Of a stretch of DNA of 64,000 bases, positions 7,858-37,845 are shown piece after piece; positions within the stretch are counted from its first letter, which is position 1; each line of letters opens with the position of its first letter. The notes below the pieces were generated by a model. That model saw only the letters and a list, made by a program, of their open reading frames with translations, ran no database searches and was not told the origin of the DNA. The position numbers were made by a program, and so were the translations under genes. Source of the DNA: Candidatus Altimarinota bacterium (GTDB lineage Bacteria; Patescibacteriota; Gracilibacteria; BD1-5; UBA6164); contig JALSMB010000008.1 in NCBI GenBank assembly GCA_026988025.1, positions 1,335-65,334 of the forward strand, given 5' to 3'.

Positions 7858-8205
7858 ATGAAAATTAAATTATATAGAATTATATTAAATATTTTATTTT
7901 ACGTATTTTACGTAATAGTAGTTTCAATTTCATTTTCTTTCATTTTTCCTACTATTCTTGTTATCTTATGACAAGATGTAATTGCTCCAAATAATCCTAT
8001 TTTTGATACTATACAAATAATAATAATAATCTTAGTTTTACTTATAAGTTTATTATTTAGAAGATTCTTTTATTTACCAATAAGAGAAAAAAATAAGATT
8101 AAAAAAGAATTAGAATTTAAAAAGTATGAAAAAAAAGATAAAAAAATAGAAGAAATAAATGATGAATTATGACTTGATATAAAAATAGGGAAAGAAATAA
8201 AATAA
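7858..8205 (+). CDS. Hypothetical small membrane protein inserted between atpG and atpD
   Basis: 115-codon ORF with two hydrophobic segments (ILNILFYVFYVIVVSISFSFIFPTILVIL; IQIIIIILVLLISLLF) and a Lys/Glu-rich tail. No family recognised. Confidence 0.5.
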
Positions 8206-8235: not shown

Positions 8236-9636
<1,401 letters not shown>

Positions 9637-9650
9637 TTAATTATAAAATT

Positions 9651-10079
9651 ATGAAATTAGAAATATTATCATTTACATGAAACTTATTTAGATCTGAAAC
9701 TGTAGAAGAGGTTACTGCTATGACTAAAGTTGGTGAGATTACTATTTTAGATAATCATACTCCTTTAGTTACTGTTTTAAAACCTTCTATTATTAGTGTT
9801 ATTTATACTGATGAATCTTGAGTTAAATCTGAAAAAGATTTTGCAATAGGTTGAGGTGTTTTAGAAGTATCTGATTCTTCTATAAAGGTTTTAATTGATA
9901 TGTTAGTATCAATTGATGATGTTGATGTTGATGCTGCTGAAAAAGCTAAAAAAGATGCTTTAGCTATGATGGAAAAATTCAAAGATGCTAAGGATAAAGT
10001 TGATATGGAAAAATTCATTGAAGCTGAAGATATGCTAATGAAATCAGTTGCTAAACTTAAGTTAAGTGAGATAAAATAA
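9651..10079 (+). CDS. atpC: F1 ATP synthase subunit epsilon
   Basis: MKLEILSFTGNLFRSETVEEVTAMTKVGEITILDNHTPLVTVLKP, followed by a helical C-terminal domain. Last gene of the operon. Confidence 0.85.
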
Positions 10080-10080
10080 T

Positions 10081-10113
10081 AACTACAAAAAAGATTTGTA
10101 GTTATTTTTTTTT
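10081..10113 (+). terminator. Rho-independent terminator of the atp operon
   Basis: aactacaaa / tttgtagtt stem with a 5-nt loop, followed by a T9 run. Confidence 0.8.
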
Positions 10114-10154
10114 GAGTATAATTTTTATAGATTTATATATTAAATAATTATTAT

Positions 10155-10730
10155 ATGGAAGCATTTTTAAATGAGGTTGTAGATGGGGAAAAATTTGAAT
10201 TAACTATTGATACTAAAATTTTTAGTAAAGAAATAGTTTTAAAAACTGCTTATGTTTTTTTAGATAGATGATATTTCTTTTTTAAAATGGATAATAATTG
10301 AAATATAATTTTACAATTTACTAGAAAGGAAGAAAATAAAGAAGATCCTAAAAAAATAATTACTGATTTTGCTGACGAGTTATTATCTACATTATTAAGA
10401 GATACCCTTGAAAAGGATAATAAAGATATAAGAGAAAAAATTGTTTGAGCAGCTATAGCTAATAGCTTAGATTCAAATTGATTTACTTCTATTGATACTG
10501 ATAACATGTGAAATAATCAAGAAAATAATCAAATAGATTTTGATAAAGATATTGATGAAATATTAAAAGAAATAGAAAATGATCCTGAATTAAAAATAGA
10601 TGAGGAAGAAATAGAAAAGATACTTAGAGAGATAGAAGAAGAGACAGAGAATGAAATTGAAGAAATTAAACCCAATATTACAATAGATCCGGAGGCTGTA
10701 AAAAAAGCTAAAGAAAATTTTAAGAAATAG
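10155..10730 (+). CDS. hxsD: HxsD-like protein with an acidic C-terminal extension
   Basis: About 100-aa N-terminal domain with FADELLSTLLRDTLEKDNKDIREKI, resembling the LLNDYxLRE signature of His-Xaa-Ser system protein HxsD. Lies directly upstream of HxsB and HxsA. Confidence 0.55.
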
Positions 10731-10786
10731 AAAAAATATAATCTATTTCCTTTTTAAAAGGAATATATATAAGATAATAAAAAAAT

Positions 10787-10981
10787 ATGAAAAAAAAGTT
10801 TGAAATAAATATAGATATTTATTCTGAAGATATTATAAATCAAACAATTTGAGATTTTGAAGAAATATCTGAAATAAAATATACAGATAATAATTTAGAA
10901 ATACATTGAAGTTCTGAATCAGAAATTAATGAAATTTTTAATGAGTTTATGAATTATGTAATTTGATTAATTAACGAATAA
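10787..10981 (+). CDS. Small HxsD-like / hypothetical protein (64 aa)
   Basis: MKKKFEINIDIYSEDIINQTIGDFEEISEIKY...EINEIFNEFMNYVIGLINE. Same beta-then-helix layout as the preceding gene, and context only. Confidence 0.35.
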
Positions 10982-10987
10982 ATAAAA

Positions 10988-12469
10988 ATGTTAAATTTAG
11001 AAAAAATAAAATGATTAAATAAAAATACTGGTTTTTTTAGATTTAAACCATTTTGAAATGATTATTTAATTACTAATGATATAGCTAAACATGCTTTTTT
11101 AACTAAAAAAGAGTTTGGTGATTTTATTATGTGAAAAATAACTGAATGAGAAAAATATGAAGAATTATTAAATAGATGATTCATAAAAAATGATAAATAT
11201 AAAGCAAGCATGGCTTTGGCTTATGCTAAAAAAAATGAATTTTTATGATATGGACCTAGTCTTCATATAATTGTAACTACTTTAAGATGTAATCACAAGT
11301 GTCAATATTGTCATGCGGCTGTTGCTCCAATGTCAGCTAAAGAAATGGATATGACAGAGAAAACTGCAAAAAAAGTAGTTGATACTATTTTTTATACTTC
11401 TAATCCGAGTTTAACTATAGAATTTCAATGATGAGAAGCATTAGTTAATTGGAATGTTGTTAAATATATAGTAGAGTATGCAGAGACAAAAGCAGTTCAT
11501 TTGAAGAAAAATTTAAGTTTTGCTTTAGTTACAAATCTTACTTTGATGGATGATGAAAAACTAGATTATATTATTGATCATAATATATGATTATCGACAA
11601 GTCTTGATTGAGATGAAGAAACTCATAATTTTAATAGAACTTTTAAAGATTGAAATAGTTTCGAACAGGTGACTTATTGGATAAAAAAAATAAATAAAAG
11701 ATTTGAAGTAGAATGAATTAAGCAAAAAATATGAGCATTATTAACAGTTTCTAAAAGAACTCTATCAAAGTATAAAGAAGTTATTGATACTTATGTAGAG
11801 TTAGGACTTGATTGAATATTTTTAAGACCATTAAATCCTTATGGGTTTGCTGCTGCAGATTTAGAAAAGCTATGATATGAACCAGAAGAATTTATAGAGT
11901 TTTATAAAAAATCTATGGATTATATTATAGAACTTAATAAAAAATGAATAAAATTTAGAGAAGCTATGTCTTGAATATATTTATCTAAAATTTTAACTGA
12001 TAAAGATCCTAATTATCTTGATGAAAGAAGTCCCTGTTGAGCTTGTATTTGACAAGTAGCTTATAACTTTGATTGAAAAATATATTCATGTGATGAAGGA
12101 AGAATGCTTGGAAGAATGTGAGATGATAATTTTAAAATGTGAAAATTAGAAGAAACTTGAGAAGAAACATATAAAAAAATGATAGATTCTGAAACAACAA
12201 AAATTATGGTTCAAGCATCTACTCTTGATTGACTTCCATGATATAATGATAGTGTTTATAAACCATATATTTGAGTCTGTCCAATACATTCATATAAATC
12301 AACAGGTAATATAATTCCAAATTATTCTAAAGATGAAAAAAGAATATTAGGTCATAGTATACTTGATTATTTATTTGAAAATATTAGAATAGAAGAAAAT
12401 AAAAATATTTTTAAGGATTGGTTAGGTATGGGAGATAATTCTGTCACTAGTCAATGTGAATCAATTTAA
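10988..12469 (+). CDS. hxsB: Radical SAM/SPASM maturase, HxsB-like
   Basis: TTLRCNHKCQYCHA (CxxxCxxC), FQGGEALV, and C-terminal SPASM-type cysteines (SPCGACIGQVAYNFDGKIYSCDEGR ... IGVCPIHSY). Immediately precedes the His-Xaa-Ser repeat peptide. Confidence 0.75.
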
Positions 12470-12485
12470 TTTTTAATTTAATTAT

Positions 12486-13013
12486 ATGAGTGAAAAAAAG
12501 AAAAAACTTTTTCCAAAAATAAAGAAAAAGTTAAAGGGATTTATTGCTGATGAGAGTGGTAAGATAACAAAGAAAGATGCTCTAGGTTTGGCTGTATGAG
12601 CTATACTTTTTAGTTGAATTGAAGAAGTTAATGCTGCTGCTTGACATGCAAGTGGTAGTACTGTAACAGATTCTAGTATTTGAGCATCTTATTCTAGTGC
12701 TACACAACATTATAGTCAGACTTGATGTACAAATACTTCTCCTTGTAGTTCGGATCCAAGTATGTCAGATAGGTTGAAATGAGCTTCTGTAAATGCTTCA
12801 ACTTCATGTCAACATGCAAGTTGAATTGTTAACTGACATTATAGTTCTACACCTTCTTTAAATTCACCTACTACATATTATAAATGAGATTGAACTCATA
12901 TAAGTATGGATGCAACTCATGGTAGTCATGGTAGTCATGGTAGTCATGGTAGTCATGGTAGTCATGGTAGTCATGGTAGTCATGGTAGTCATGGTAGTGG
13001 TGGTTGGTGTTAA
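12486..13013 (+). CDS. hxsA: His-Xaa-Ser repeat protein (HxsA-like precursor), 175 aa
   Basis: Lys-rich N-terminus, one hydrophobic segment and a Ser/Thr/Cys-rich body with scattered HAS, HYS, HAS, HYS and HIS motifs. These are followed by nine HGS repeats and a terminal GGWC. Confidence 0.8.
12918..12998 (+). repeat. Perfect 9-bp tandem repeat catggtagt x9 (encodes His-Gly-Ser x9)
   Basis: Direct reading of 12918-12998. In frame with hxsA. Confidence 0.95.
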
Positions 13014-13035
13014 TTATATTTTATAAGTTGTAATT

Positions 13036-13734
13036 ATGAAGAAAAATATATTTATATTTATTATATTATTTTTTTTATGAATTAGTTTATATTTGAATTT
13101 TTTAGCTAAAAATAATATAGATACATGAAGTTTAGCTAAAAATAATATAGATACATGAAGTTTAGCTAAAAATAATATAGATACATGAAGTTTAGCTAAA
13201 AATAATATAGATACATGAAGTTTAGCTAAAAATAATATAGATACATGAAGTTTAGCTAAAAATAATATAGAAAGTATTATTGATGAATTTGATAAAATAA
13301 ATAATAAAAATAATTTTGATAAGTTTTTGAAAAAATATAATTGACAAAATTTACTATATACATTTTTAAGAGTTTGAAATAAAAAACTATTTTTAAAATT
13401 TCAAAAATATTCTTTTAAAAATAAAAACATATCATTAGAAAATTATGAAAATTATATGGGTAGAATCTTTGATAATTATAATTCTAAATGATATTTTAAT
13501 TGAAAATATATTAATAATTGAGAATATGATTATTTTTTAATATCTTTATTAAATAAAGATATTAAATTTAAGTTAAATTTATGTAATAAATGATTTAGTA
13601 ATGATATTGAAAGCTTAAATGCTTGTAAAAAATATTCACTATTTATGTCTTATGAAAATAATAATGATTGTAATAAAATGATGACATCTGTTGATAAAAA
13701 ATGGTGTATAGATACATTAAAATTAATAAACTAA
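13036..13734 (+). CDS. Secreted or membrane-anchored repeat protein (hypothetical)
   Basis: Signal-like N-terminus MKKNIFIFIILFFLGISLYLNF, then (LAKNNIDTGS) x5.7, then a Cys-containing C-terminal domain. Confidence 0.6.
13101..13270 (+). repeat. Perfect 30-bp tandem repeat, 5.7 copies (tttagctaaaaataatatagatacatgaag)
   Basis: Copies start at 13101, 13131, 13161, 13191 and 13221, with a partial copy at 13251. All are identical and in frame. Confidence 0.95.
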
Positions 13735-13740
13735 TATAAT

Positions 13741-15066
13741 ATGGATAATAATTTTGATACTAATTTTTATAATGATTTATCAGATTATATTGATAATGTT
13801 GATTATAGTTCTTATACTTTACAATATCCCCCTCCATTTATTTTAGAAAATAAATTTAATAATAAAGATTTTTTAGATTGATTTAAATTTACACAAAAAA
13901 AGGTATGAATATATATTCATATCCCTTTTTGTGATACAAAATGTACATTTTGTAGATATTATTCTATTATTGATTTTAAATTAGATACTTATTTTAAATA
14001 TGTTAATTATTTAATTAAAGAATTGGAAATTTATAAAAAAGTATTAGATACTAATAATATATTAATTGATACTATATATATATGATGAGGAACTCCTAGT
14101 ATTTTAGATGAAGTAAGTTTAGAAAAATTATTAAATTATATTTTTTTAAATATAAATTTAGATGATTCATATCAGTTTTGTTTCGAAGCAAATCCTAATA
14201 GTTTAAGTATAAAAAAGATAAAAATATTAAAAAAATATAATTGTAATAGATTAACTTTATGAATCCAGTCTTTAGATAGTAATGTATTAGAAAAGATAAA
14301 TAGAGTCCAATCTAAAAAAGATGTTATAAGATCAATTTATTATTGAAAAAAAATATGAATTGAATATATAAATGTCGATTTAATGTTATGAATTAAATGA
14401 CAAACGTATAAATCTTTTATTAATGATGTTAAAATTGTATCGTGATTAAAACCAGACATGATACATTTACATCCGTATACATCAACATGAAGAGTAATAG
14501 ATAATAAAAATTTCACATCAATTCGTGATGTTAAAATGAAAATGGAAAAAAATTGAACTTTATATTTAAAATCTAAATGATATTGAGATATAGAGTGAGA
14601 TGCATTATGATTCAATAATAATTCAAAAAATAAACAATTATTTAATGCTTTAAATTGATGAGAATATATATGAATTGGGGTATCTTCTGTATGATATAAT
14701 TCACTATTTAGAACTATAAATACTGATTCTTTAAATAATTATTATTCTTTTTTGGATAAATGAGCCCTCCCTGTTAAGTTTTGATCATTATTAACCAAAG
14801 AAGATAATATGATACAATATATTATTTATAATATAAGATATAATGAAATTTCAATAGGTAAATTTAATTCTATTTTTTGAGTTGATATACTTAAATATTT
14901 TAAAGAAGTTTTTTTATTATTAAAAGAAAAATGAATATTAGATATTATTAATAATAAAATTATTTTTTATTTTAAAACACCATATGAATACTCTGTATTT
15001 TCAAAATATTTTTATAGTAAGGAAATTTTATTAAAATCTAAAAAATTAATATATGAAAATAAATAA
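13741..15066 (+). CDS. HemN-like radical SAM protein (coproporphyrinogen-III oxidase family / class C rSAM methyltransferase-like)
   Basis: VGIYIHIPFCDTKCTFCRYY, IYIGGGTPS and NRLTLGIQSLD are the typical HemN/HemZ family blocks. Confidence 0.8.
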
Positions 15067-16723
15067 TAAATATGATTTAGTAGTTGCTTGATGATGACCT
15101 GGATGAGTAACCTCTGCTATAACTTTTAAAAAATTAAATCCAGAATCAAAAATATTAATTTTTGATATAAACTCATTTCCAAAACATAAAATATGAGAAG
15201 TTATACTTCCAGGGTCATTTATCATTTTAAGGAAATTATGATTATTAAAAGCTATAAAGGAGTACTGATTTTTGAGGAAAATGTGAGTTTATTACTATTG
15301 GTGAAAAAGTAAGGATAAATGATTTTTATTACCATCAAGTAGGCTAGAAGAAAAAAAATGAATATTTTATGATATGACTCCTGAAAATTATTCATATCAT
15401 GTAGAAAGATATCAATATGATAATATTTTAATTAAAGAAGCTATTAAGTTATGAATAGATTTCAAGCAAAATGTTAAAATTTGAGAAATTAATTATTTAG
15501 ATGATAATAATATTAATTATTTAGTTGTTAATAATGTAAAAATTAAAGCAGATTTTTATATTGATTCTACTTGAATTAATAAATGAATTATAACAAGTAA
15601 AATAAAAAAATTTAAAGAAAAAGATTTTTCATGAGATATATGTTATCATTGATATTTAGAATGAGCTAATTTTTTACATAATTTTAATTGATTAAAAAAA
15701 CGGGTTGCTACTACAGTTTGATCTTATTGAAATAAATGCTGGTTTTGGTATATACCAATTACAGAAAATATTGTTTCTGTATGAGTAGTATTTAAATCAT
15801 CTTGTAATAAGGATTTTGTTGAAATAAAAGATAAAGAAGAACTATTGATTAATGTTTTATGTAGTTTTACTAAAATTAAAAACGCAATTAAGGATGCTAA
15901 ATTTATAAATTATAAGTGATTAGAAAAAATAACTATTATTAAAAATTGGAACTGAATTTCTAATAAATTATGTTGAGATAATTGGATGTTAGTATGAGAT
16001 TCTGCTTTCTTTTCTGATCCAATTTTATCTGCATGAGTCACTATGGCTCATAAAACTTGATTTTTTGCTTGAACATTATTAAATAGTTATTTAAAGTCTG
16101 ATAGTAGTTCATATAAAAAATTATTATTAAAAACTTATGATTTGTATTGTAAAGATTTCTATTCTCAAGTATCAGATGTGATTAAATTTTGGTATGATTG
16201 AATGGACGAACAAAAAGATATTAATAGTCTATTTGATATATGAAAAGATACTATGAAAAAATTTGGTATTGTCGATAATGTATCATCTAGAAGCACATTT
16301 ATGTATGTAGTTAATTGATTATTTCAATCTATTGATACTTGATGAGATTATACTACTTTATATGAACAGGATGATTATGAAAACATAATAGAATGATTAA
16401 CATGAATTAATATTTCATTAAATGTTAATAATATTGATTGAAATGATGTATATGAATTTGTAAATGATTTTAATATAACGAAAAGGTTAAAATTAGATTG
16501 ATTTGATTTTAAATTAACTAAATTTTTACAAATTAAAAATATATATAATAGTTCATTTTTTATTAATGATTTTATATCTGATTTTGTTGATAATATTAAT
16601 TGAAATAATACTTTAAATGATATAATTACTATCTTAAAGTGAAAATATCATGATATTATTTTAGAAGATTTATACAAGATTATAAAAAAATTTATTCTTT
16701 TAAATTTAATTAAATGTATGTAA
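15053..16723 (+). CDS. Flavin-dependent halogenase (tryptophan-halogenase family)
   Basis: DLVVAGGGPGG (tga tga tga cct gga tga, 15089-15106), the WxWxIP motif as CWFWYIPI, and WMLVGDSAFFSDPILSAGV. Overlaps the upstream gene by 14 nt. Confidence 0.75.
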
Positions 16724-17217
16724 AAACTAATAAAAATGAATTATTAATTTTAAATAATTTTATTAATACTTTAAATGTTAATAAAATTTTAAATTATTTT
16801 TTTGAGAAAAAATTAGTGAATAAAAATACAGAGAAATATTCTTGTATGACTTATATTTTAAATAAAGAAGATTTATCTTTTTATTGAAATTTAATAGATA
16901 TAAGTAAAATATTGGATATTTTAAATTATAATTACTGAAAAAAATTTATTTTTTCATGAATATCTGAATATATTGAGATGAATAAATGAGATTTTTTACT
17001 TGAACATACTGATTGATTTCATGATTTTCAAGCAGTTTTATATTTATCTAATATAAATGAATTAGATTGATGAGAATTTATTATTGATAATTCATTATAC
17101 AATTTATTAGTGTGAGATATTGTAGTATTTAAATGAAAAAGGAGTCATTCAGTAAATTTAATAAAATGATGAAATAAAAGAATATCTATAAGTTTTTGAT
17201 TTAATAAAATAAACTAA
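16714..17217 (+). CDS. 2OG-Fe(II) oxygenase (prolyl-4-hydroxylase-like)
   Basis: LLEHTDGFHDFQAVLYLSN...GGEFII...GDIVVFKGKRSHSV...RISISF, giving an HxD...H...R facial-triad layout. Confidence 0.65.
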
Positions 17218-17222
17218 TTATT

Positions 17223-18374
17223 ATGAATAATATATGTTATACAATTAAATTGCATGAGTTATGTAATTATTGATGTTTATTTTGTTTCCAAAAACATGAA
17301 AATAGAGCTAATGCTGAAATAAAAGATAGGTTAGTTGTTTTTAATCTTATACTTAACGCTTATAAAAAATGATATAAATCTATAGAATTTACTTGAGGAG
17401 AACCTTTATTATCTAAAAATATATTTATATATCTAAAGTTTTCTAAAAAAATTGGTTTTAAGAATATTTTAATTAAAACTAATTGATATTTATTTTGAGA
17501 CTTAAATTTTGTTAATAATTGTATTTTATCTTGAATGACATCTTGCCATATTTCTATACATCATTATATATCAAAGAAACATGATTTTATTGTTTCTAAG
17601 GAATGAGCATTCTTTGAAACATTGAAATGAATTAGATATTTAAAAACTAAAAGATTACATTTATGATTACAAATAGTATTAAATAAAAATAATTATAAAG
17701 ATATAAAAGATATTATATTGTTTTTCTTAAATGAATGAATATTAGATTTTGTTATATTATTTCAAGAAATTGAATGAGAAGTTTATAATAATTTGAATGA
17801 TTTATTAATTTCTTATAATGAGGTTATCCCTTATTTATTAGATACTTTATCTTTATTTAATGGGATTAGCTGAAAGTATATAAAAATATTAAATTTTCCT
17901 TATTGTTTATTTCCATTAATCTATCACAAATATATAATTTCAGAAATCAATTTAACTGTCAATATCGAAGAGTGAGATATTAAATATATAAATAGAAAAA
18001 GAAATAGTAATTTAGCTTTAAATAAATGTAATAAATGTGATTTTTTTAAAAAATGTTCTTTAGTGGATATTAATTATTTAAATTTTTACTGAGAAGAAGA
18101 ATTTTGAAATAAAATATTATCTTCTAATTATAAAAATGAATTTAATATAATAGATATTTACATTAAATCTATAGTTAATTGAATATTTTATTCTAATATT
18201 AATGATTATATAGATTACGTTATATCTAAATTTTCATTTAGTGAATTTTATTTATATTTTCTTATTACTGATCAAAATAATACTTTATTTGAAGTTTTTA
18301 AGGATAACATAATTTTTGATGTTACTAGTTCAATTAATAAATTACATAACATTGGTATTATAAAATTAATATAA
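17223..18374 (+). CDS. Radical SAM protein (HxsC-like architecture)
   Basis: KLHELCNYGCLFCF, FTGGEPLL and a C-terminal CNKCDFFKKC (CxxCx5C). Frame verified open codon by codon. Confidence 0.8.
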
Positions 18375-20323: not shown

Positions 20324-21121
20324 ATGAATAAAGATATTTTATATAATTTAAAAAATATTGTCTCAAATGAATATCTTAATATTGATGTTTTAGGTTTTAT
20401 TTCAGATAATTTTAATAGTAGATTTCCTATACAGTATTATGTAATGGATAATTTTATTAATAAAGATTTGTATAAATCATTTGAAAATGAAATGTTAAAG
20501 AATATAGATTTTGATATTATCGATAAAAGAACAAATTCATTTATTAGTAATAAAAGTATATTATTGAATAATAAATCTTTTCTAAAAATTTATAATTTTT
20601 TTATATCTAAAGATTTTGAAATATTTCTTTCTATAATATTTAAAAGACATTTAAAAAGGTATAAAAAATTAGATTCTAAAAGAATTGAAGAATTAACTAA
20701 TATTAAGAATTCTTGAGTGGTTCAAATTTATGAGAAATGAGATTTTATGGATTGGCATACAGATATATCAAAAGATTTAAATAGGGATGAGTGTATATTA
20801 AAATGATGATATGAAGAATGGGATAAATGTATTGTAACTGAATTTGATGAAGTTGGAGCTTTTATTTACTATATATATAATTCTAATGATTTATGGAATT
20901 ATAATAATTGATGAAACTTAGAGTTATGAAAAATTTTAAATTGAGATATAAATGTATATAATAAAATTAAACCATTAAGAAATAGATTGGTTTTTATAAA
21001 ATCATCTAATGCTTCTTATCATAGAGTTAGTAAATTATTAAAAGAATGAGATTATAGAATTACTATACAAGATCTATTATTTGATAAATATTCAGAAATA
21101 TGAAATGAAATTCTACCTTAG
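20324..21121 (+). CDS. 2OG-Fe(II) oxygenase (P4H-like)
   Basis: GDFMDWHTDISK, GGNLELG, NRLVFIKSSNASYHRVS and RITIQ. Confidence 0.65.
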
Positions 21122-22827
21122 ATATTTATATAACAGAAATATGTAATTTAAATTGTGAATACTGTTATATTGATATTAAAAAGAAAGAATATAATTGATT
21201 TAATTATGTTGAATTTATTGATAGAATTAATTTACTACAATATAATACTATAAGATTTTTATGATGAGAGCCATTGTTAAAATGGAATGATCTGAAGAAT
21301 GTAATAAGAAATGTAAAGAAAATTAATGATAAAATTCAATTTATAATCATTACAAATTGAATTTTGTTGGATAATGAAAAATTAATTTTTTTAAGTAAAA
21401 ATAATGTTAGTATAGCTATATCTTTGCATTTTAATGTTATAAAGGAATTTAAAAATAAGGAGTTTTTAAAATTATTATATAAATATAATAATATTATATG
21501 ATTTATAGTTTTATTTAATTATAAAAAAGAATATTTATGAACAAATATAATGTTTTTTCTTGCAAATATATGATTTTTAAATTTTTCATTATCTCCAATT
21601 ACAACTGATAATTGGGATGATACTTTTTTATTAAGTATTGAATTAGAAAAAATATTTAATTTTTTATTATTAAACAAAAATATAAATATAGCAGAATCAG
21701 ATTGGAATTTTATAAAAAATCTTCATACTGATGATTTTTGTAGTAGGAAACAAGTAGATAAAGAATGAACATATAGACCTTGTAATAGATTTAATGATGA
21801 TTTTTTTAATAAAAATACTAATATTAAAGTAATAAAAGATTCATTTAATAAAATTAATAGTTGTAGTACTTGTAATGTAAGATGGTTTTGTGTATGTCCT
21901 TATTGATGGTATTATGATAATTTTTGAAATTCATTAGTTTATGATAAAAATAAAATAAAAAACTTCCATAATCTTAATAAAATTTTAATTGATTTTAATA
22001 AAAATGTAGCAAAACTGAGAAATAAAAAAAATTTTTTAATTGATGATATAGGTGAAATAAGATTTAATTTAACTAATCAATGTAATTTGAGATGTAATTA
22101 TTGTTATGTGCAATTTGATAATGATAAATTAGACTTAAATATATGAAAAAATATAATAAATTTCCTTTTAGAGCAAGAATGATTAAATAAAACTATTTCA
22201 TTTTTTTGATGAGAGCCTTTATTAGAATTTAAATTATTAGAAGATTTAACAAATTACGCAATTGAAAAATCAGTTTGATTAAATAAAATTGTTAACTTTA
22301 AAATTGCTACAAATTTATTACTTTTAGATAAATATATTTTAGATTTTTTTATAAAAAATAATTTTAAAATTCATATTTCGCTTAATTGAGATAAACAAAT
22401 AAATAATTCAAGTAGAGATAATAGTAGTGAACTTTTATTAAAAAAAATAGAATTATTAAATAAATGAAATATTAATTTTGATAATATAACTATATTAAAA
22501 TTAATATTTCCATATAATATTAATTTTTTAAATAAAAATTTAAAGTATATCTATGGTTTATGATTTAATAATATAAGTTTTGAATTATATTATTGAAAAA
22601 AATATACTCGGTCTAAAAAAGATATTTTATTGTTAGGTAAATCATTTTATTATCTCAAAAAATATTGAATATTAAATAAATTCAATATTTTAAACTGAAA
22701 GGATAATAATTATTTAGATATATCAGTTGATGGTAAGATAAATGATAATTCATTAGAATTTTTTAATTGAAGTATTGATTTTTCAATTAAAAAAATATTT
22801 AATAAAATTTTAACTAAAACAATGTAG
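21100..22827 (+). CDS. Didomain radical SAM protein (rSAM/SPASM fused to a second rSAM)
   Basis: Single frame checked codon by codon. Domain 1 has ITEICNLNCEYCY, FLGGEPLL and the SPASM-like CSTCNVRWFCVCPYG. Domain 2 has LTNQCNLRCNYCY and FFGGEPLL. Confidence 0.8.
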
Positions 22828-24098: not shown

Positions 24099-25328
24099 AT
24101 GCTTAAAAAATATATATTTGATACACATAGAATATGTTCTCCAAAAGAAACAGTTACACATGTTTTAAAAATAATAAAAAACACTTGAATTATAAATGAT
24201 ACTAATTTAAAAATATATTCAATAGGAGAATTGGATATTTTTAATGAATATGTATATTCAATATCCTCAAATATATGAAAAAGAAATAATTGGTGAAAAT
24301 GACTTACTAAGTATCAAGCATTAGCAAGTGCATTAATGGAATTTTCAGAAAGATATTCATGGTATAAAATAATTGAAAAAATTAATAATCAGAAAAAAAA
24401 TAAATTGATTAATATTAATGATAGAGAAGTATTAGATATTGATAAATTAATTTTAACAAATTCAGATAAAATAAAAAAAATAGAAAATATTAATTATTTT
24501 GATAATATATATATGAATTATATTGAGTGAATATCATTAATCACGAATAAAAAAATATTAATTCCTTGGTATGAACCTGAATTTATGACTACTAATTCTT
24601 TATGAGCCTGAAATAATAAAGAAGAAGCAACTATACATGCCATTTATGAAACAATTGAAAGACATAATCATAATGTTATGATGGCTAATCATGTTTTACC
24701 TTTATTAATAAATGATAATACCATAACTAATAGTAATATTATAAAATTGATAAATAAAATAAAATTATTAGGTTTTGAAGTTTATTTATTAGATTGTTCG
24801 TTTAATTTTAATATTAATACAATATGAGCAATAGTATATAATAAAAATTTTCAGTTCGTTGAACATTATTCGATGAATTTTCATTTATGAACACATAGTG
24901 ATAAAGATATTGCTATTATAAGAGCTTTAACAGAAGTTATTCAAAATAGGGCAACTAATTTTGATAATAATAAAAGTTCTATTTATAAAGAAGCAGATAA
25001 TATGATTTTAGATGAAAATAATATATCTAAAATAGTTAAATTTTATTTAGAAAATATTAGAAATAATAATTTAGAAATTATTAATTATAAAAATATTATA
25101 AATTATAATTTTAGTGATTTATGATTAGAGCTTGAATATATATTAAATGAATTAAAAAATAAATGACATGATGTTTTTTTAATAGATATTACTAATGATA
25201 AATTAAAAATACCTGCTGTTAGAGTTGTTATTCCATGATTACAACCAATGTTGTTTGAATTATTTGATGATTTTAATAATAAGAATATTAGACTATCAGA
25301 ATATATTGATAATGGATTTATAACATAA
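24099..25328 (+). CDS. YcaO-domain protein (ATP-dependent peptide backbone-modifying enzyme)
   Basis: WGKGLTKYQALASALMEFSERYSW and TTNSLGAGNNKEEATIHAIYETIERH are the canonical YcaO blocks. Confidence 0.85.
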
Positions 25329-27381: not shown

Positions 27382-29292
27382 ATGCCTGATATAGCTCTAT
27401 GGTCAGCTTGTGATCATAAATGTACAATGTGTTCAAATTCAGTTGATTATATAGAAACAATAAGTGATTATTCATTTGAGGCTATCAAAAATAGAATTGA
27501 TGGCTTTGTTTGAGGTGATGATAGAAATTTTCATAGATTTCCAGATTTAAAAGATGATTGGACTATTACAGGTTGAGAACCAACATTAAATCCAGATTAT
27601 TACAAAATTTTAAGATATTTAAGGGAAAAATTTCCAAACTCTAAATTAGTTCAACTTACTCATTGAGATAGATTTTCTGATATTGAATTTACAAAAGATA
27701 TAGTGAGTTTATCTAATTATCATCTAGTTTTTCCTATACATTGATATAATAAAAAATCTCATGAAGCCATTGTAAGAAAGGAGTGAAGTTGGGAGGCTTT
27801 AATTAAATGAATATATAATGTTTTAAAATATAAAAGATTTGAGGATCAAACATTTGAAATAAGAATAATTATACAGTGACAGAATTATAAACATCTTGAT
27901 AAAATTTACGAATTTATATATAAATATTTTCCACAAGTTGATAGTATTGTTTCAATAATGATGGAATATGAATGACAGGCAATTGATAATAAAAACTTAA
28001 CTTCTGTTAATTATAATTATGTTTATGAGATAAATGAAAAAATATTTTTAAAGTATTGAAAAATATTTGGTGTAAATAAATTTAAATTATATCATTTTCC
28101 TTTATGTACATTAAAAAATCCAGAACTTTGGAAATATATGTGGAGAACATTACCTAGCCATGAAATTAATTTTGTATGAAAGTGTAGTACGTGTAAATTA
28201 TCTAAATATTGTATGTGAATTCATGAAACTTATTGTAAATTTAACTGAGAGGATGAAATAAAACCTTTTAAAATGAAAGATTTAGGTAATATAAAAATTA
28301 TTGAGAATTATGATAATTTTAGGTTCAACCCAATAAAAGAAGTGGAAATAAAAAATAATTGATGGAAAAGATGAAAAAAAACAGTAATTTTTACTTGATA
28401 TTGATGTAATAATATATGTAGGTTTTGTATTGATTTAAATAAAAGAGATATAGAACATACAACAAAACAAATATTAAAAGATATACTTATAGCAAAACAA
28501 AATTGAACTACTATTCTTGAAATAATATGAGGGGAAGTAACTATTAGAAAAGATTTTTTTATAATAATGCAATTTATAAAGTCTATGAATTTTAATCATG
28601 TTTATATGGTTACTAATTGAAATAAATTAGCTGATTATAATTTCGCAGAAAAATTTTATAATATGTGAGTTTTAGATTCAATAGTTTTTTCTATTCATTG
28701 AAGCTATTTAGAATTACATGATTTATTAGTTGCTACTCCTAAATCTTTTGAAAAATTATTAAAGTGAATAAAAAATTGGCAAGATTTATGATTTAATAAA
28801 AGAAAAATAGGTACTAATACTGCTATTGAAAAATGAAATTATAAAGATTTATTAAATATATGAAAATTAGTTAAAAAATTATGATGTTTAGGGAGTTCAG
28901 AGTTTATTTTTGCTGATCCAAATGTTTGATGAGTTCATGATAATTTTGAAGAATTAATGCCAAAAATTTTAGAATCAGCTCCTTATATGAGAGAATTACT
29001 TGATTGGTGAAATAGTAATGATATGATATATAGAGTAAGATATGTTCCTCTTTGTTATTTTGAAGATTATTTAGATAATAATATTTCAGAACTAAAAGAA
29101 ATTGAGATTTATTCTAATGTTACTCATAGTGCACCAGATTTTAATAATAGTGATGTGGTTGAGTGAAGAAAAAATTCATGAAGAGTTAAAACAAAAAAAT
29201 GTACAGATTGTAAGTTATTTGATAAATGTGAATGAATCTGGAAAACATATTATGAAAAACTTTGAGATGAAGAATTATTACCAATAAAATAA
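27382..29292 (+). CDS. Didomain radical SAM protein (two HxsC-like modules fused)
   Basis: Frame verified across the junction. Module 1 has WSACDHKCTMCSNS, ITGGEPTL and CSTCKLSKYCMG. Module 2 has TGYGCNNICRFCID, IIGGEVTI and CTDCKLFDKCEG. Confidence 0.8.
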
Positions 29293-29842: not shown

Positions 29843-30682
29843 ATGAAAAAATATATAGATCATCTTGTTCCTATAAATAATGTATGTAACCAAGCATGCA
29901 ATTTTTGTAGTGCTGAGTATAGAATGAAAACAAATAAATCCATTCCTTTAAAAACTATATTTAAACAAATTTTAGAAAAAGATAATTATATACAAATTTC
30001 AGGTTGAGAGCCTCTTCTTAGTAAAGATTTATATAATATTTTATATTTTATAAAAAAGCAAAAATCTAGATGTTTTATAGAATTTCAAACTAATTGAGTT
30101 TTTTTATTACAAAATTCTAATTTAGATAAATTACAAAAATTTTGAATAAATTTATATAATATCAATTATCCATGCCATATTGAAAAAATAAATGATGAGA
30201 TAGTTAGGTGAAAATGAAGTTTTCATCCTAGAGAAAAATCTATGAGGGAAATTATTAAAAGATGATTAAATTTAAGAATTAATATTATTGTAAATACTAT
30301 TAATTTTAAATATTTACCAAGTATGGTAGATTACATAAATAAAAATTTCAGTTGACTTGAAAGAATACAATTTAGTTTCACAAAAGCTATGTGAGCAGCA
30401 AATAAAAATGATGAAGTGGTGCCTAAATATGAAGATACTGAGGAATATTTTATAGATGCTCTGGCAAAATGTAAAAAATATAATATAATAGCAGATGTAG
30501 ACCATATTCCTATATGTTTCTTATGAAAATATTTTAAAAATCATGTAGATTATAGTAAATTAAAAAGATGAGAGAAGTGAGTTTTTTTAGTAGAAAAACA
30601 TTATGTAAAAAGATGTAACTTGTGTAATAAAAAGAATTTATGTACAGGTTTTAGAAAAGATTATTTAGAAATTTATAATTAA
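29843..30682 (+). CDS. Radical SAM protein (HxsC-like architecture)
   Basis: INNVCNQACNFCSAE, ISGGEPLL and a C-terminal CNLCNKKNLCTG. An alternative upstream ATG lies at 29816. Confidence 0.75.
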
Positions 30683-36061: not shown

Positions 36062-36587
36062 AAATAAAATAATAGAATTATTTGATAATGAAAAATATAA
36101 GGAGGTTTATAAATTAACTAATCCTTATAATAAAGATATTATTCTAGATTACGAGATATTATATTTTTTGAAATCAAAGTTAGTTTTAGATGATTTTAAG
36201 ATTAATAATAGTAATGAAATAAAAAAGATATTATTTTATTATTTTTATTTATTGTGAAAAATAAAATTTGAAAATAATTATAGTTTTTATTTTAAGAAGG
36301 AATTATTAAAACTTGATTTTAATAATTTAGAAAAGGATTTAAATTCATTAAAAGATTTCAAACAATATTTTGAATTGTGAAAAAATAAAGTATTTTTAAA
36401 TAAAATTATTGATAAAACTTTAAAAAATAATAATAAAATGGAATTTAGACAATGATCTAAAGAGGTTTATAATATTATTGATTTTTTTATAGAATTCACT
36501 AAAGAATGTTCTGAACTATATGCTTTTTCTTGAGAGCATTTTCCTTTATTTAAATGGCTTATTAATGAATTATCAGATGAAAAATAA
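36054..36587 (+). CDS. Hypothetical protein
   Basis: 177-codon ORF that overlaps both neighbours by 8-11 nt. Confidence 0.45.
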
Positions 36588-37845
36588 TATAGAAAGTAAA
36601 TTACAAAATAAATGAATAACAAAAGAGGATCTTGAAAAAAGAGATGAATTATTATCTTGAACTAAAGATAAAAAATCTCAAAATATTAGAAGTTGTTATG
36701 AAGTTATGGTACATAAATTATGCCAAGAAAAATGTTTTTTTTGTAGTCAGGATCATGCAAGTAGAATTACTGATGTTAAACCTGATGATTTAGATATTTA
36801 TAAAAGAATTTTGTTTTGAGTAAAAGAGTGATATTGAATGTTAGGTTTTACATGATGAGAACCTCTTATACATCAAAATATTATTAATTATATAAAATTT
36901 GCTTCTAAAGCATGATTTAAATTAGTTAGAATTCAAACTAATTGAGTTATGCTTTGAAATCCTTGATTTGCTAAAAAATGTGTTGATGCTTGAGCAACAC
37001 TTTTTAAGTTTTCTATACATCATTATAAATCAGAAATACACGATTATTTAGTATGACTACCATGAGCTTTAAAAAAAGTAGAATATTGAATAAAAGAATT
37101 AAGAAAACTTTGATGTAGAATGTGAATAAATATTGTACTTACAAAACAAAATTATAAAGATTTGCCTGAATTTTTATTACATTATTTAAATCTATGAATA
37201 TCTTCATTTGTAATTATTTTTCCACTTTACGAGAATAGTATGAAAGATGAAGCGGATGTAGTATGATTTAAATTTTCTGAATCTATTCCATATATAATAA
37301 AATCATTACATATATTTGATAAATTATGATTAAAAAGACCACTTGTTCTAAATTTACCAATGTGTTTACTACCTTGATATGAAAGTGCTATAATTCAGAC
37401 TTTTAATTGAACAGCAGTCTTAAATCTTGATTGATCAAAGACTAATATTGATGATAATAAGGCCTGATGAAAGAAGAGGGTAAAAATATGCTCTGATTGT
37501 GAGCATAATAAAATTTGTTTCGGTGTAGATGAAAAATACTTGGCTGTATTTTGAGAATGAGAATTTCAAGAAAAAAAGGAAAAATTAAATTTTAATTTTT
37601 CTTTAGAGGATTTAAAAATACAGAAGTATTTTTCTGATAATGAATTATGTTTAATTGAAATATTACAATATAAAAATAATTTAAAAATTAAAGATATAGC
37701 TGAATTAAAAGATAAATTTCAAATATGTAAAGATTGTGATAATATGGATAAAATTTGAGAAGTAGAAGAAAGTTTAGTAAAAAAATGAATTATTTTAGTG
37801 AAATGACAGTGATTAGAAAAGAAATATAGTTTAATTCCTAAATAA
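36577..37845 (+). CDS. Radical SAM protein (HxsC-like architecture) with a C-terminal extension
   Basis: VHKLCQEKCFFCSQDH, FTGGEPLI and CSDCEHNKICFG, followed by about 90 aa of helical tail containing ICKDCDN. Confidence 0.8.

What the first reader, a model, noticed from the sequence alone, without database searches (positions are those of the whole stretch)
10155..13013. A His-Xaa-Ser (Hxs) peptide-maturation system in a code-25 genome
The region holds two small HxsD-like proteins; the first contains ELLSTLLRDTLE, compare the HxsD LLNDYxLRE signature. Next come an rSAM/SPASM enzyme with the HxsB-like layout and a 175-aa protein with 14 His-Xaa-Ser motifs (HAS, HYS, HAS, HYS, HIS and nine HGS). 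The Hxs system is a computationally defined family (TIGRFAMs HxsA-D) whose chemistry and product remain uncharacterised. This copy lacks an adjacent canonical HxsC and is instead followed by many HxsC-like paralogues.
Basis: partly seen in the sequence, partly recalled or inferred. Interest (0 to 1): 0.65.

Follow-up and report, generated by a model that had tools for sequence, protein, structure and literature searches.

The report
HxsC-less His-Xaa-Ser maturation cassette, Gracilibacteria
This is a real four-gene His-Xaa-Ser (Hxs) protein-maturation cassette in a Gracilibacteria genome that reads TGA as glycine. It is a stripped-down, conserved variant of a system recently shown to block phage DNA entry in E. 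coli, so it is a new variant of a known system rather than a new one.

Summary
With TGA read as Gly, 10155-13013 encodes four proteins:
- HxsD (TIGR03976, 59 bits, cutoff 50).
- A 64-aa HxsD-like protein (NF038315, 41.5 bits, cutoff 41).
- HxsB (TIGR03978, 501 bits, cutoff 370).
- A 175-aa exported protein in which all 14 His lie in H-x-S.

Li et al. 2026 showed that canonical HxsD-B-C-A is an anti-phage DNA-entry barrier.

This copy is a distinct variant:
- **No HxsC.** None is adjacent, and none reaches cutoff anywhere in the 64 kb.
- **Reduced HxsB.** All four Aux-II SPASM cysteines are replaced in 119 of 119 clade orthologues.
- **Different HxsA.** It fails every HxsA model. It has an invariant Lys-rich leader, an invariant HxSGIVNGHYS motif and an (HGS)9 tail, is not basic, and has no Pfam peptidoglycan-binding domain hit.
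- **Longer HxsD.** It carries a conserved acidic extension.
- **Chromosomal and conserved.** All nine Gracilibacteria loci examined have the cassette, five directly after the atp operon, and it is conserved about as well as ATP synthase subunits.

NCBI already labels HxsB and HxsD in such genomes, but calls HxsA "hypothetical". Verdict: new variant of a known kind, moderate interest.

The parts
10155..10730 (+). HxsD, long form (191 aa). HxsD domain at residues 18-105, followed by a conserved acidic helical C-terminal extension (IDFDKDIDEILKEIENDPELKIDEEEIEKILREIEEE).
   Evidence: TIGR03976 59 bits (cutoff 50), E 4.5e-16. 513 homologues; the best 120 are all about 185-205 aa, and NCBI names them HxsD in Gracilibacteria. 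The extension is invariant or near-invariant across 49 sequences. Canonical Aeromonas HxsD is only 96 aa. The AF2 model of an orthologue gives beta-alpha-beta-beta-long alpha with pLDDT 79-93.
10787..10981 (+). HxsD' (64 aa), an HxsD-like small protein with a conserved C-terminal IFNEFMNYVxGLxNE.
   Evidence: NF038315 HxsD_rel 41.5 bits (cutoff 41). Present at the same position in all 9 Gracilibacteria loci and in L010, L015 and L016. Only weak profile similarity to the HxsD N-terminus (hhalign probability 9%, 23 columns).
10988..12469 (+). HxsB (493 aa), a radical SAM maturase. N-terminal RRE-like domain (~18-82), CX3CX2C at C101/C105/C108, and a SPASM-derived C-terminal domain that keeps C350/C368/C431 (Aux-I type) but lacks all four Aux-II ligands (Y419, S422, I428, R452). 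Clade-specific C353 and C490.
   Evidence: TIGR03978 501 bits (cutoff 370). Cys inventory. AF2 model of an orthologue has pTM 0.81 with beta3-alpha3 at the N-terminus. Best structural match is CteB (E 1e-18, 462-487 aligned columns). Best PDB sequence hit is CteB 5WGG.
12486..13013 (+). HxsA-like precursor (175 aa), a Gracilibacteria-specific subtype of the His-Xaa-Ser repeat protein.
   Evidence: 14 H-x-S motifs covering all 14 His. Best models are HxsA4 at 39.2 bits (cutoff 55) and HxsA3 at 38.1 (cutoff 65), both missed. 169 homologues, named only 'hypothetical protein'.
12486..12635 (+). HxsA leader and signal region (aa 1-50). Lys-rich n-region of 32 aa containing the invariant FxxDESGKIxKKDAL motif, a hydrophobic stretch at aa 33-45, then VNA followed by an AxA-type site.
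   Evidence: Invariant columns in alignment A1. Hydropathy and charge analysis. Leader motif in 105 of 120 homologues. Related motifs occur in Spirochaete, gamma-MAG and Clostridia HxsA but not in canonical Aeromonas HxsA.
12807..12845 (+). Invariant core motif C-Q-H-A-S-G-I-V-N-G-H-Y-S (aa 108-120). Proposed site of HxsB modification.
   Evidence: H110, S112, V115, N116, G117, H118 and S120 are invariant in an otherwise hypervariable core. The motif is found in 81-87 of 120 homologues, and a Cys lies exactly 2 residues upstream in 34 of 87.
12917..12998 (+). (HGS)9 tail, encoded by a perfect 9-bp tandem repeat.
   Evidence: TRF reports period 9, 9.1 copies, 100% match. Tail length ranges from 0 to 19 units among homologues. 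The L005 and L010 sequences have runs of N (unknown bases) inside the H-x-S repeat region of HxsA.
13036..13734 (+). 232-aa N-terminally anchored protein with five LAKNNIDTGS repeats. Possible accessory gene with a conserved position.
   Evidence: Weak homologues (27-33% identity) directly follow HxsA in L002, L005 and L007, with another in L008. Perfect 30-bp x 5.7 repeat. No Pfam or NCBIfam family above cutoff. Membership in the cassette is uncertain.
17223..18374 (+). HxsC/HxsC4-like radical SAM paralogue (383 aa). Context only; link to the cassette unproven.
   Evidence: TIGR03977 95.8 bits (cutoff 267.9). 26-30% identity to the L010 and L015 HxsC4-like enzymes. C-terminal CxxCx5C motif.
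27382..29292 (+). Double radical SAM protein (636 aa). N-terminal half is HxsC-like and C-terminal half is HxsC4-like.
   Evidence: TIGR03977 196 bits (cutoff 268). NF038332 161.6 bits over model positions 10-335 of 335 (cutoff 500). 31-32% identity to the HxsC4-like enzymes that accompany HxsB in L010 and L015 (adjacent in L015, two genes downstream of HxsA in L010).
29843..30682 (+). HxsC-like radical SAM paralogue (279 aa).
   Evidence: TIGR03977 103 bits (cutoff 268).
36520..37845 (+). HxsC/HxsC4-like radical SAM paralogue (441 aa).
   Evidence: TIGR03977 78.9 bits and NF038332 78.8 bits, both below cutoff. 29-32% identity to the L010 and L015 HxsC4-like enzymes.

Best explanation
This is a chromosomal, vertically conserved, HxsC-less variant of the His-Xaa-Ser protein-maturation system, specific to Gracilibacteria. 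Proposed mechanism, step by step:
1. HxsA is made as a 175-aa precursor. Its 32-residue Lys-rich n-region carries an invariant FxxDESGKIxKKDAL recognition motif, followed by a hydrophobic helix and an AxA-type cleavage site.
2. In the cytoplasm the leader is bound by the RRE-like N-domain of HxsB. HxsD and HxsD' act as small chaperone or adaptor proteins, and the acidic tail of HxsD may pair with the basic leader.
3. HxsB is a radical SAM enzyme with the SAM cluster and only one auxiliary cluster. It installs a site-specific modification in or next to the invariant C-x-H-x-S-G-I-V-N-G-H-Y-S motif, without any HxsC.
4. The product is exported by the Sec pathway and cleaved after about A50. It then displays a neutral His/Ser/Gly-rich domain ending in a slippage-variable (HGS)n tail at the cell surface.
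5. There it serves a constitutive envelope function. An HXS-type block of phage DNA entry is the specific candidate from homology, and a metal-binding or attachment role is about equally likely.

Shown: gene identities, architecture, conservation, the cysteine losses and the motifs. Inferred: binding partners, modification site, export and biological role.
For: Identity: HMM scores above curated cutoffs for HxsB, HxsD and HxsD', and NCBI gives the same names to Gracilibacteria orthologues.

Conserved D-D'-B-A order: seen in 9 of 9 Gracilibacteria loci, 5 of them directly after the atp operon.

Housekeeping-grade conservation: HxsB 59-77% and HxsD 61-68% identity, against AtpG 56-70%, AtpC 51-63% and AtpD 83-89% in the same genome pairs.

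Leader: invariant across Gracilibacteria. A related motif is kept in Clostridia, Spirochaete and gamma-MAG systems that share only B and D with this one, so B or D is the likely reader.

RRE-like domain in HxsB: AF2 secondary structure beta3-alpha3 with pLDDT 83-93 and near-full-length superposition on CteB.

Single auxiliary cluster: Aux-II positions are Cys in 10 of 10 non-Gracilibacteria HxsB and in Aeromonas HxsB, but never Cys (Y/F, mostly S, I/M, mostly K/R) in 119 of 119 clade orthologues. C350, C368 and C431 stay invariant.

Modification site: it is the only invariant element in a hypervariable core, and E. coli HxsA is also modified inside an HxS repeat.

Export: K-rich n-region, hydrophobic stretch (mean Kyte-Doolittle hydropathy 2.2) and AxA-type site. 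Canonical HxsA is likewise signal-peptide dependent.
Against: There is no experimental data for any member of this variant. HxsA fails all curated HxsA models. HxsD' passes its cutoff by only 0.5 bit, and its homology to HxsD is weak. The HxsD fold has no significant PDB match, so the chaperone role is a guess. A trans-acting HxsC-like enzyme cannot be excluded: four paralogues lie 4-24 kb downstream in the window and similar ones occur in L001, L005 and L007. Genome-wide absence of HxsC was not testable. The most divergent orthologue (L009) also lacks the Aux-I cysteines, so even one auxiliary cluster may be dispensable. Against a defence role by the E. coli mechanism: the mature region has only 1-3 Lys+Arg, the protein has no Pfam peptidoglycan-binding domain hit, and it sits in housekeeping context rather than a mobile one. 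'Lineage-wide' rests on 9 loci and more than 120 database clusters, not a complete census.
Confidence: 0.6

Rival explanations
1. It is a functional equivalent of the E. coli HXS anti-phage system. Matured HxsA sits in the envelope and blocks entry of phage DNA, and the cassette is simply the Gracilibacteria version of that defence.
For: HxsB and HxsD are homologous to the characterised system (paper). HxsA is an exported H-x-S repeat protein. The perfect, copy-number-variable tandem repeats in HxsA and in the next gene and the hypervariable core fit an arms-race surface protein. E. coli HXS is a constitutive, non-abortive barrier, which a reduced genome could afford to keep as a core gene.
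Against: Canonical HXS is accessory and mobile: 409 plasmid records, 325 of them conjugative, and the Aeromonas copy lies beside restriction and Tn7-like genes. 99.7% of systems are in Pseudomonadota. This cassette is chromosomal, often syntenic with atp genes, and conserved like a housekeeping operon. HxsC, which forms the core complex with HxsD in E. coli, is missing. Mature HxsA is not basic (K+R 1-3) and has no Pfam peptidoglycan-binding domain hit, which undercuts the electrostatic DNA-trap model. There is no PADLOC hit, though that database predates HXS.
Confidence: 0.3
2. HxsA is the precursor of a heavily tailored secreted RiPP natural product. The downstream array acts on it together with HxsB. 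That array holds radical SAM enzymes, a YcaO, a halogenase-like flavoprotein, 2OG oxygenases, a carbamoyltransferase and glycosyltransferases.
For: Radical-SAM-rich arrays lie downstream of the cassette in all nine Gracilibacteria loci examined, on the same strand and with short gaps. The window has 7 further radical SAM genes plus tailoring enzymes within 25 kb. Several of them are HxsC/HxsC4-like.
Against: The array is not conserved with the cassette. Only L007 shares a syntenic block, at 33-63% identity against 77% for HxsB, and the other loci carry different gene sets. The array has distinctly lower GC (0.14-0.21 against 0.23-0.29), which suggests a separate history. HxsA has a Sec-type signal rather than a cleavable RiPP leader, and the cassette contains no protease or ABC exporter. 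At 125 residues of mature sequence it is a protein, not a peptide.
Confidence: 0.12
3. The H-x-S protein is a low-complexity artefact of reading TGA as Gly, or a chance ORF, and only HxsB and HxsD are real.
For: HxsA fails all curated HxsA cutoffs. The region is AT-rich and repetitive.
Against: 169 homologues share an invariant 50-residue N-terminus and an invariant internal motif, always directly downstream of HxsB. H-x-S enrichment is far beyond composition. None of the 9 HGS glycines is a TGA codon. Code 25 is independently proven by AtpD and AtpA.
Confidence: 0.01

Closest known systems
Canonical HXS anti-phage system (HxsD-HxsB-HxsC-HxsA; E. coli, Klebsiella, Aeromonas; Li et al. Nat Commun 2026, PMC13128918; TIGR03976-03979)
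   Same: Orthologous HxsB (501 bits) and HxsD domain. The substrate is a signal-bearing protein with clustered H-x-S motifs encoded next to the enzymes. Maturation by radical SAM chemistry inside or near an HxS element is expected.
   Different: No HxsC. An extra HxsD'. HxsD is 191 aa rather than 96 aa. HxsB has lost the Aux-II cysteines. HxsA has a long conserved leader instead of a short signal peptide, is neutral rather than basic, has no Pfam peptidoglycan-binding domain hit, and ends in (HGS)n. The cassette is chromosomal and clade-conserved rather than plasmid-borne and accessory.
HxsA4 / HxsC4-type variant systems (NCBIfam NF038313, NF038332, NF038315), seen here in L010 (gamma-MAG) and L015 (Spirochaete)
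   Same: This is the closest architecture: D-D'-B-A order, an HxsD' present, the leader motif FLTSEEGKI[TN][RK]K, an (H[GA]S)n core and a GG(W)C-type C-terminus.
   Different: Those loci have an HxsC4-like 300-aa radical SAM gene next to B or two genes downstream of A (160-169 bits) and a full 7-Cys SPASM HxsB. Gracilibacteria HxsA scores below the A4 cutoff (29-50 bits against 55) and has the extra HxSGIVNGHYS motif and a long variable core.
HxsA3-type systems of Clostridia (L016-L021)
   Same: Homologous HxsB (36-40% identity), HxsD, a leader motif (FLYEEEGNI[ST]R) and H-x-S-rich exported substrates.
   Different: They carry a true HxsC (280 bits, cutoff 268), an extra 343-aa polytopic membrane protein, a full SPASM set in HxsB, and basic HRS/HSS repeats.
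CteB / SCIFF, PapB and related thioether-forming radical SAM-SPASM RiPP maturases
   Same: These are the best structural and sequence relatives of HxsB outside its own family: CteB at E 1e-18 with near-full-length superposition, PapB at 138 bits. They share the RRE-like N-domain, radical SAM core and C-terminal cluster domain. A Cys lies 2 residues before the HxsA core motif in 39% of homologues.
   Different: HxsB scores far below their cutoffs. The Gracilibacteria enzyme lacks Aux II. 23% of motif-bearing HxsA have no Cys within 12 residues upstream of the motif, so a Cys thioether cannot be the universal product.
Twitch-domain radical SAM enzymes (BtrN, MoaA, SkfB), from general knowledge of the SPASM/twitch classification
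   Same: One auxiliary cluster-binding site next to the radical SAM core. SkfB appears among the structural matches.
   Different: Here the state arose by point replacement of four Cys inside a full-length SPASM fold, not by truncation. Cluster content has not been measured.

Membership tests
His-Xaa-Ser (Hxs) system, canonical | HxsB radical SAM maturase scoring at or above the TIGR03978 cutoff (370 bits) | tested here: met
   501.1 bits, E 3e-150, model positions 3-466 of 466.
His-Xaa-Ser (Hxs) system, canonical | HxsD small protein at or above the TIGR03976 cutoff (50 bits), with the LLNDYxLRE-type signature | tested here: met
   59 bits over model positions 1-88 of 90. The signature is degenerate (ELLSTLLRD), keeping the L..LR[DE] part.
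His-Xaa-Ser (Hxs) system, canonical | HxsC second radical SAM enzyme at or above the TIGR03977 cutoff (267.9 bits), adjacent to HxsB | tested here: not met
   No radical SAM gene is adjacent to hxsB. The best score in the window is 196 bits, for a two-domain protein 15 kb away; the others score 79-103 bits. The same holds in all 9 Gracilibacteria loci within the flanks held. Genome-wide absence was not testable.
His-Xaa-Ser (Hxs) system, canonical | [quoted passage not shown] | tested here: not met
   No TIGR03979 hit at E <= 0.1, and no Pfam peptidoglycan-binding domain. The mature region has 3 K+R. Aeromonas HxsA has HRS repeats and a peptidoglycan-binding-type C-terminus.
His-Xaa-Ser (Hxs) system, canonical | A small signal-bearing protein with clustered H-x-S motifs encoded beside the maturases | tested here: met
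   14 of 14 His lie in H-x-S, P = 1e-4 after collapsing the repeat. The gene starts 16 bp after the end of hxsB.
His-Xaa-Ser (Hxs) system, canonical | Gene order D-B-C-A (99.6% of systems, per the paper) | tested here: not met
   The order here is D-D'-B-A. Paper statement.
His-Xaa-Ser (Hxs) system, canonical | Anti-phage activity through a block of DNA entry | not testable with these tools
   Needs phage challenge of a host carrying the recoded cassette.
HxsA3 / HxsA4 variant Hxs systems (NCBIfam) | Substrate at or above the NF038309 (65 bits) or NF038313 (55 bits) cutoff | tested here: not met
   38.1 and 39.2 bits. The other Gracilibacteria HxsA tested score 29-50 bits, all below cutoff. 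Clostridia score 98-113 on A3, and L010 scores 57.4 on A4.
HxsA3 / HxsA4 variant Hxs systems (NCBIfam) | HxsD-like second small protein (NF038315, cutoff 41 bits) | tested here: met
   41.5 bits, a marginal pass. Its position is conserved.
HxsA3 / HxsA4 variant Hxs systems (NCBIfam) | HxsC4 radical SAM protein (NF038332, cutoff 500 bits) | tested here: not met
   The best score is 161.6 bits, for the C-terminal half of 27382-29292. The L010 and L015 enzymes themselves score only 160-169 bits.
Radical SAM / SPASM peptide maturases | CX3CX2C radical SAM motif | tested here: met
   C101, C105 and C108 are invariant in 19 of 19 loci and 119 of 119 orthologues.
Radical SAM / SPASM peptide maturases | Seven-Cys SPASM motif binding two auxiliary [4Fe-4S] clusters | tested here: not met
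   Three Aux-I-type Cys are kept (C350, C368, C431). All four Aux-II-type positions are non-Cys clade-wide. Actual cluster content is not measurable here.
Radical SAM / SPASM peptide maturases | N-terminal RiPP recognition element (PqqD-like beta3-alpha3) | tested here: inconclusive
   The AF2 secondary-structure order matches (E18-22, E25-29, E35-39, H40-47, H55-62, H71-82; pLDDT 83-93), and alignment to CteB spans nearly the full length. The domain was not searched on its own.

The most novel reading that the evidence does not exclude
In Gracilibacteria the Hxs machinery is not an accessory phage-defence module. It is a vertically inherited, essential-like envelope-protein maturation pathway. 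A minimal set of HxsB (one auxiliary cluster) with HxsD and HxsD', and no HxsC, installs a new His/Ser-centred (or Cys-to-motif) modification in the invariant C-x-H-x-S-G-I-V-N-G-H-Y-S element of a surface protein. The variable (HGS)n tail of that protein mediates metal capture or host attachment in these episymbiotic, genome-reduced bacteria. The proteobacterial anti-phage HXS would then be a mobilised derivative of an older envelope function.
Probability: 0.3. Interest if true: 0.72.

Novelty: new variant of a known kind. Interest (0 to 1): 0.5.

Why it matters
1. The only functional study of Hxs reports that 99.7% of systems are in Pseudomonadota, because it searched with HxsA. Searching with HxsB and HxsD reveals a large, previously undiscussed branch in candidate-phyla-radiation bacteria whose substrate current models miss.
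2. That study could not reconstitute the chemistry and could not separate the roles of HxsB and HxsC. A natural HxsC-less system with a single invariant target motif is a simpler route to what HxsB itself does.
3. Clade-wide replacement of all four Aux-II ligands inside an intact SPASM fold is a clean natural experiment on what the second auxiliary cluster is for.
4. A homologue of a mobile defence system that is conserved like ATP synthase subunits in roughly 1-Mb genomes raises the question of which role came first.

None of this overturns current understanding. It extends a known system.

Tried and rejected
- **Promoter and terminator scan, 9600-13800:** 45 promoter-like sites against 39 expected and no terminators, so it is uninformative in 22% GC DNA. 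The operon structure rests only on same-strand spacing of 6-56 bp.
- **PADLOC:** only generic viperin-type radical SAM hits. The 2023 database predates HXS, so this says nothing either way.
- **HxsD against PDB by sequence:** nothing. By fold, the best E is 0.03 (Rpb11-like and type III secretion chaperone-like small alpha/beta modules). This is not significant and I treat it only as a hint against a PqqD-type RRE.
- **hhalign of HxsD against HxsD':** 23 columns, probability 9%. Too weak to claim more than NCBIfam already does.
- **Structure prediction with my code-25 translation:** I modelled correctly translated NCBI orthologues instead (66% and 77% identical), so the models are proxies, not the window's own proteins.
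- **The 2.1-kb HxsB match in L012:** it looked like an insertion but is just HxsB followed by a second radical SAM gene.
- **Cys thioether as the universal modification:** rejected as universal, because 20 of 87 motif-bearing homologues have no Cys within 12 residues upstream of the motif and L003 has no Cys at all. It remains possible for the majority.
- **Minus-strand ORFs overlapping the cassette** (10250-10507, 12582-12839, and 12864-12992 'MTTMTT...'): these are reverse-complement shadows of the coding strand.
- **Database translations:** many entries read TGA as Trp, so motif counts had to allow W in place of G.

Full report
**Genetic code and ORFs.** The window is about 20% GC and looks fragmented under table 11. 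Reading TGA as a sense codon gives long, tightly packed ORFs. TGA falls on invariant glycines of AtpD (GLFGxAxVGKT) and AtpA, so the code is 25 (TGA = Gly). The nearest relatives are Candidatus Gracilibacteria MAGs. The finding's coordinates match four + strand ORFs directly after the atp operon, which ends with atpC at 10079:

| Coordinates | Length |
|---|---|
| 10155-10730 | 191 aa |
| 10787-10981 | 64 aa |
| 10988-12469 | 493 aa |
| 12486-13013 | 175 aa |

Scanning the code-25 translations against NCBIfam, which includes the TIGRFAMs, gives the following:

| Protein | Model | Bits | Cutoff |
|---|---|---|---|
| 493 aa | HxsB TIGR03978 | 501.1 | 370 |
| 191 aa | HxsD TIGR03976 | 59 | 50 |
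| 64 aa | HxsD-like NF038315 | 41.5 | 41 |
| 175 aa | HxsA4 / HxsA3 | 39.2 / 38.1 | 55 / 65 (both missed) |

For the 493-aa protein the next-best families are PapB at 138 bits and sulfatase maturase at 78. The 175-aa protein has no TIGR03979 hit. With the tandem (HGS)9 array collapsed to one unit, 6 of 6 His are still in H-x-S against 1.36 expected (P = 1e-4), and six orthologues show the same enrichment.

**What is known now.** Li et al. (Nat Commun 2026, PMC13128918) showed the following for canonical HxsD-B-C-A:
- It is a broad anti-phage system that blocks DNA entry.
[quoted passage not shown] - HxsC and HxsD form a complex.
- 99.7% of systems are in Pseudomonadota, and 99.6% have the order D-B-C-A.

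The chemistry is still unsolved, and in vitro reconstitution failed. In the plasmid collection, HxsB homologues occur in 409 records (316 Klebsiella, 325 conjugative). The Aeromonas example is D (96 aa)-B-C-A beside restriction and Tn7-like genes.

**Comparative anatomy.** HxsB has more than 120 database clusters at 64-95% identity, many from Gracilibacteria. I examined nine Gracilibacteria loci: the window, L001-L003 and L005-L009. All have D (~190 aa)-D' (~64)-B (~493)-A (125-175), and none has a radical SAM gene adjacent to B. Five of the nine lie directly downstream of the atp operon. More distant HxsB relatives (36-46% identity) fall into subtypes that NCBIfam already recognises:
- **Clostridia:** D-(D')-membrane protein-C-B-A3, with a true HxsC (280 bits) and HxsA3 (98-113 bits).
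- **A gamma-MAG and a Spirochaete:** D, D', B, an A4-type substrate and a roughly 300-aa HxsC4-like enzyme (160-169 bits).

The radical SAM genes immediately downstream in Gracilibacteria are not HxsC (32-47 bits). The window contains eight radical SAM genes (ten domains), all between 10988 and 37845, and none reaches the HxsC cutoff. Four of them (17223, 27382 with two domains, 29843, 36520) are HxsC/HxsC4-like at 25-32% identity and share a C-terminal CxxCx5C motif. That array is variable. Only L007 shares a syntenic block, at 33-63% identity against 77% for HxsB, and the array's GC is lower (0.14-0.21). The constant unit is therefore the four-gene cassette.

**Conservation.** The table gives identity between the window and the other Gracilibacteria loci.

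| Protein | Identity |
|---|---|
| HxsB | 59-77% |
| HxsD | 61-68% |
| HxsD' | 46-57% |
| HxsA | 41-51% |
| AtpD | 83-89% |
| AtpA | 80-83% |
| AtpG | 56-70% |
| AtpC | 51-63% |

The maturases are conserved about as well as ATP synthase subunits. Together with the chromosomal housekeeping context, this contrasts with the mobile, accessory canonical system.

**The substrate.** 169 homologues were found, and wherever a source names them they are 'hypothetical protein'. Many database copies read TGA as Trp. HxsA has these features:
- **N-terminal ~50 residues, nearly invariant.** A 32-residue Lys-rich n-region contains FxxDESGKIxKKDAL, followed by a hydrophobic stretch (aa 33-45) and VNA/AxA.
- **Leader motif.** It occurs in 105 of 120 homologues. 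Related forms occur in the Spirochaete, gamma-MAG and Clostridia substrates, but not in canonical Aeromonas HxsA, which has a short ordinary signal peptide. The only components common to all leader-bearing systems are HxsB and HxsD, so I infer that one of them reads the leader.
- **Mature part.** It is hypervariable, rich in Ser, Gly, His and Thr, and almost uncharged (K+R 1-3). The one exception is an invariant H-x-S-G-I-V-N-G-H-Y-S motif, found in 81-87 of 120 homologues. A Cys lies 2 residues upstream in 34 of 87, as in the window, but no Cys lies within 12 residues upstream in 20 of 87.
- **(HGS)n tail.** It varies from 0 to 19 units. In the window it is encoded by a perfect 9-bp repeat.

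**The enzymes.**
- **HxsB cysteines.** HxsB keeps CX3CX2C (C101, C105, C108). Aligning it against non-Gracilibacteria HxsB shows the usual seven-Cys SPASM set in those enzymes. In the Gracilibacteria clade the four positions corresponding to Aux-II ligands are non-Cys (Y/F, mostly S, I/M, mostly K/R) in 119 of 119 database orthologues and in all nine loci. The Aux-I-type C350, C368 and C431 are invariant in those 119 (only the divergent L009 lacks them). Two clade-specific Cys appear: C353 (112 of 119) and C490 (116 of 119). The assignment of positions to Aux I and Aux II follows the anSME/CteB SPASM pattern from general knowledge. Cluster content was not measured.
- **HxsB fold.** An AF2 model of a 77%-identical orthologue (pTM 0.81) has an N-terminal beta3-alpha3 domain with pLDDT 83-93. 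It superposes best on CteB (E 1e-18, 462-487 columns), then on anSME, TigE, ChlB and SuiB (sequence search). This is consistent with an RRE-like leader-binding domain.
- **HxsD fold.** The HxsD domain of a 66%-identical orthologue models as beta-alpha-beta-beta-long alpha (pLDDT 79-93), followed by a conserved acidic helical extension that canonical HxsD lacks. It has no significant PDB match. The weak top hits are Rpb11-like modules and type III secretion chaperones.

**Interpretation.** I conclude that this is a genuine Hxs-family maturation cassette of a distinct, Gracilibacteria-wide subtype. The most likely mechanism runs as follows:
1. The HxsB RRE-like domain recognises the HxsA leader, assisted by HxsD and HxsD'.
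2. HxsB modifies a single site at or near the invariant motif, using one auxiliary cluster and no HxsC.
3. HxsA is exported by the Sec pathway and cleaved near A50.
4. A neutral His-rich domain is displayed on the surface.

The biological role is open. An HXS-like phage-entry barrier is the lead from homology (about 0.3). However, the lack of basic residues, the lack of a Pfam peptidoglycan-binding domain hit, the missing HxsC and the core-like conservation point at least as strongly to a constitutive envelope role such as metal binding or attachment. A heavily tailored RiPP product made with the downstream array is less likely (about 0.1), because that array is not conserved with the cassette.

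**Novelty and score.** The family is known, and NCBI's pipeline already labels HxsB and HxsD in Gracilibacteria. No paper in the searchable library discusses this branch, its substrate is unrecognised, and its architecture differs in several defining features. I rate it a new variant of a known kind, interest 0.5. It is useful as a minimal model for HxsB chemistry and as a natural experiment on loss of the second auxiliary cluster, but it is not a surprise at the level of a new system.

Noticed in passing
window 13741-37845 (+ strand): A ~24-kb same-strand array with unusually low GC (0.14-0.21, against 0.23-0.29 in the flanks). It holds 7 radical SAM genes (9 domains), including a HemN-like one (13741-15066), two double-domain ones (21100-22827, 27382-29292) and the HxsC/HxsC4-like set. 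It also holds a Trp-halogenase-like flavoprotein (15053-16723), two 2OG-Fe(II) oxygenases (16714-17217, 20324-21121), a YcaO (24099-25328), TPR proteins, a NodU-like carbamoyltransferase (30828-32549), a GT2 (33737-34417) and a PMT_2-type membrane glycosyltransferase (34421-36061). This is a large investment for a genome of roughly 1 Mb. Candidate precursor peptides were not sought.
   Followed up: partly
L001 12773-21494 (GCA_013350265.1, 1.08-Mb contig): Eight or more consecutive radical SAM genes lie directly downstream of the Hxs cassette in another Gracilibacteria genome. Radical-SAM-rich arrays flank the cassette in the nine loci examined, but their gene content differs between genomes.
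   Followed up: partly
window 13036-13734: A 232-aa N-terminally anchored protein directly after hxsA contains a perfect 30-bp x 5.7 tandem repeat (13101-13271; LAKNNIDTGS x5). Weak homologues (27-33% identity) follow hxsA in L002, L005 and L007, with another in L008. It may be a fifth cassette member.
   Followed up: partly
L005 5839-6321 and L010 11536-12048: Both sequences have runs of N (assembly gaps or database masking) inside the H-x-S repeat region of HxsA.
   Followed up: no
L009 1543-2994: The most divergent Gracilibacteria HxsB (59% identity) lacks the Aux-I-type cysteines as well as the Aux-II ones (C350S, C353A, C368S, C431D). It may have no auxiliary cluster at all, yet it keeps the full D-D'-B-A cassette and the HxsA core motif.
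   Followed up: no
window 7858-8205, between atpG and atpD: A 115-aa hydrophobic ORF is inserted inside the atp operon. Similar small membrane ORFs occupy the same position in L003, L006 and L007. L001 also has an RNase H-like gene there.
   Followed up: no
L016-L021 (Clostridia Hxs loci): A conserved ~345-aa polytopic membrane protein with no NCBIfam hit sits between hxsD/D' and hxsC in every Clostridia HxsA3-type locus. It may be a dedicated processing or export component, and it is absent from the Gracilibacteria cassette.
   Followed up: no
database proteins P0001, P0121-P0240, P0241-P0263: Many public translations of Gracilibacteria genes in the protein collection read TGA as Trp. The window's own HxsB appears at 95% identity with 26 Gly-to-Trp changes. 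This distorts motif searches and probably lowers family-model scores for this clade.
   Followed up: yes
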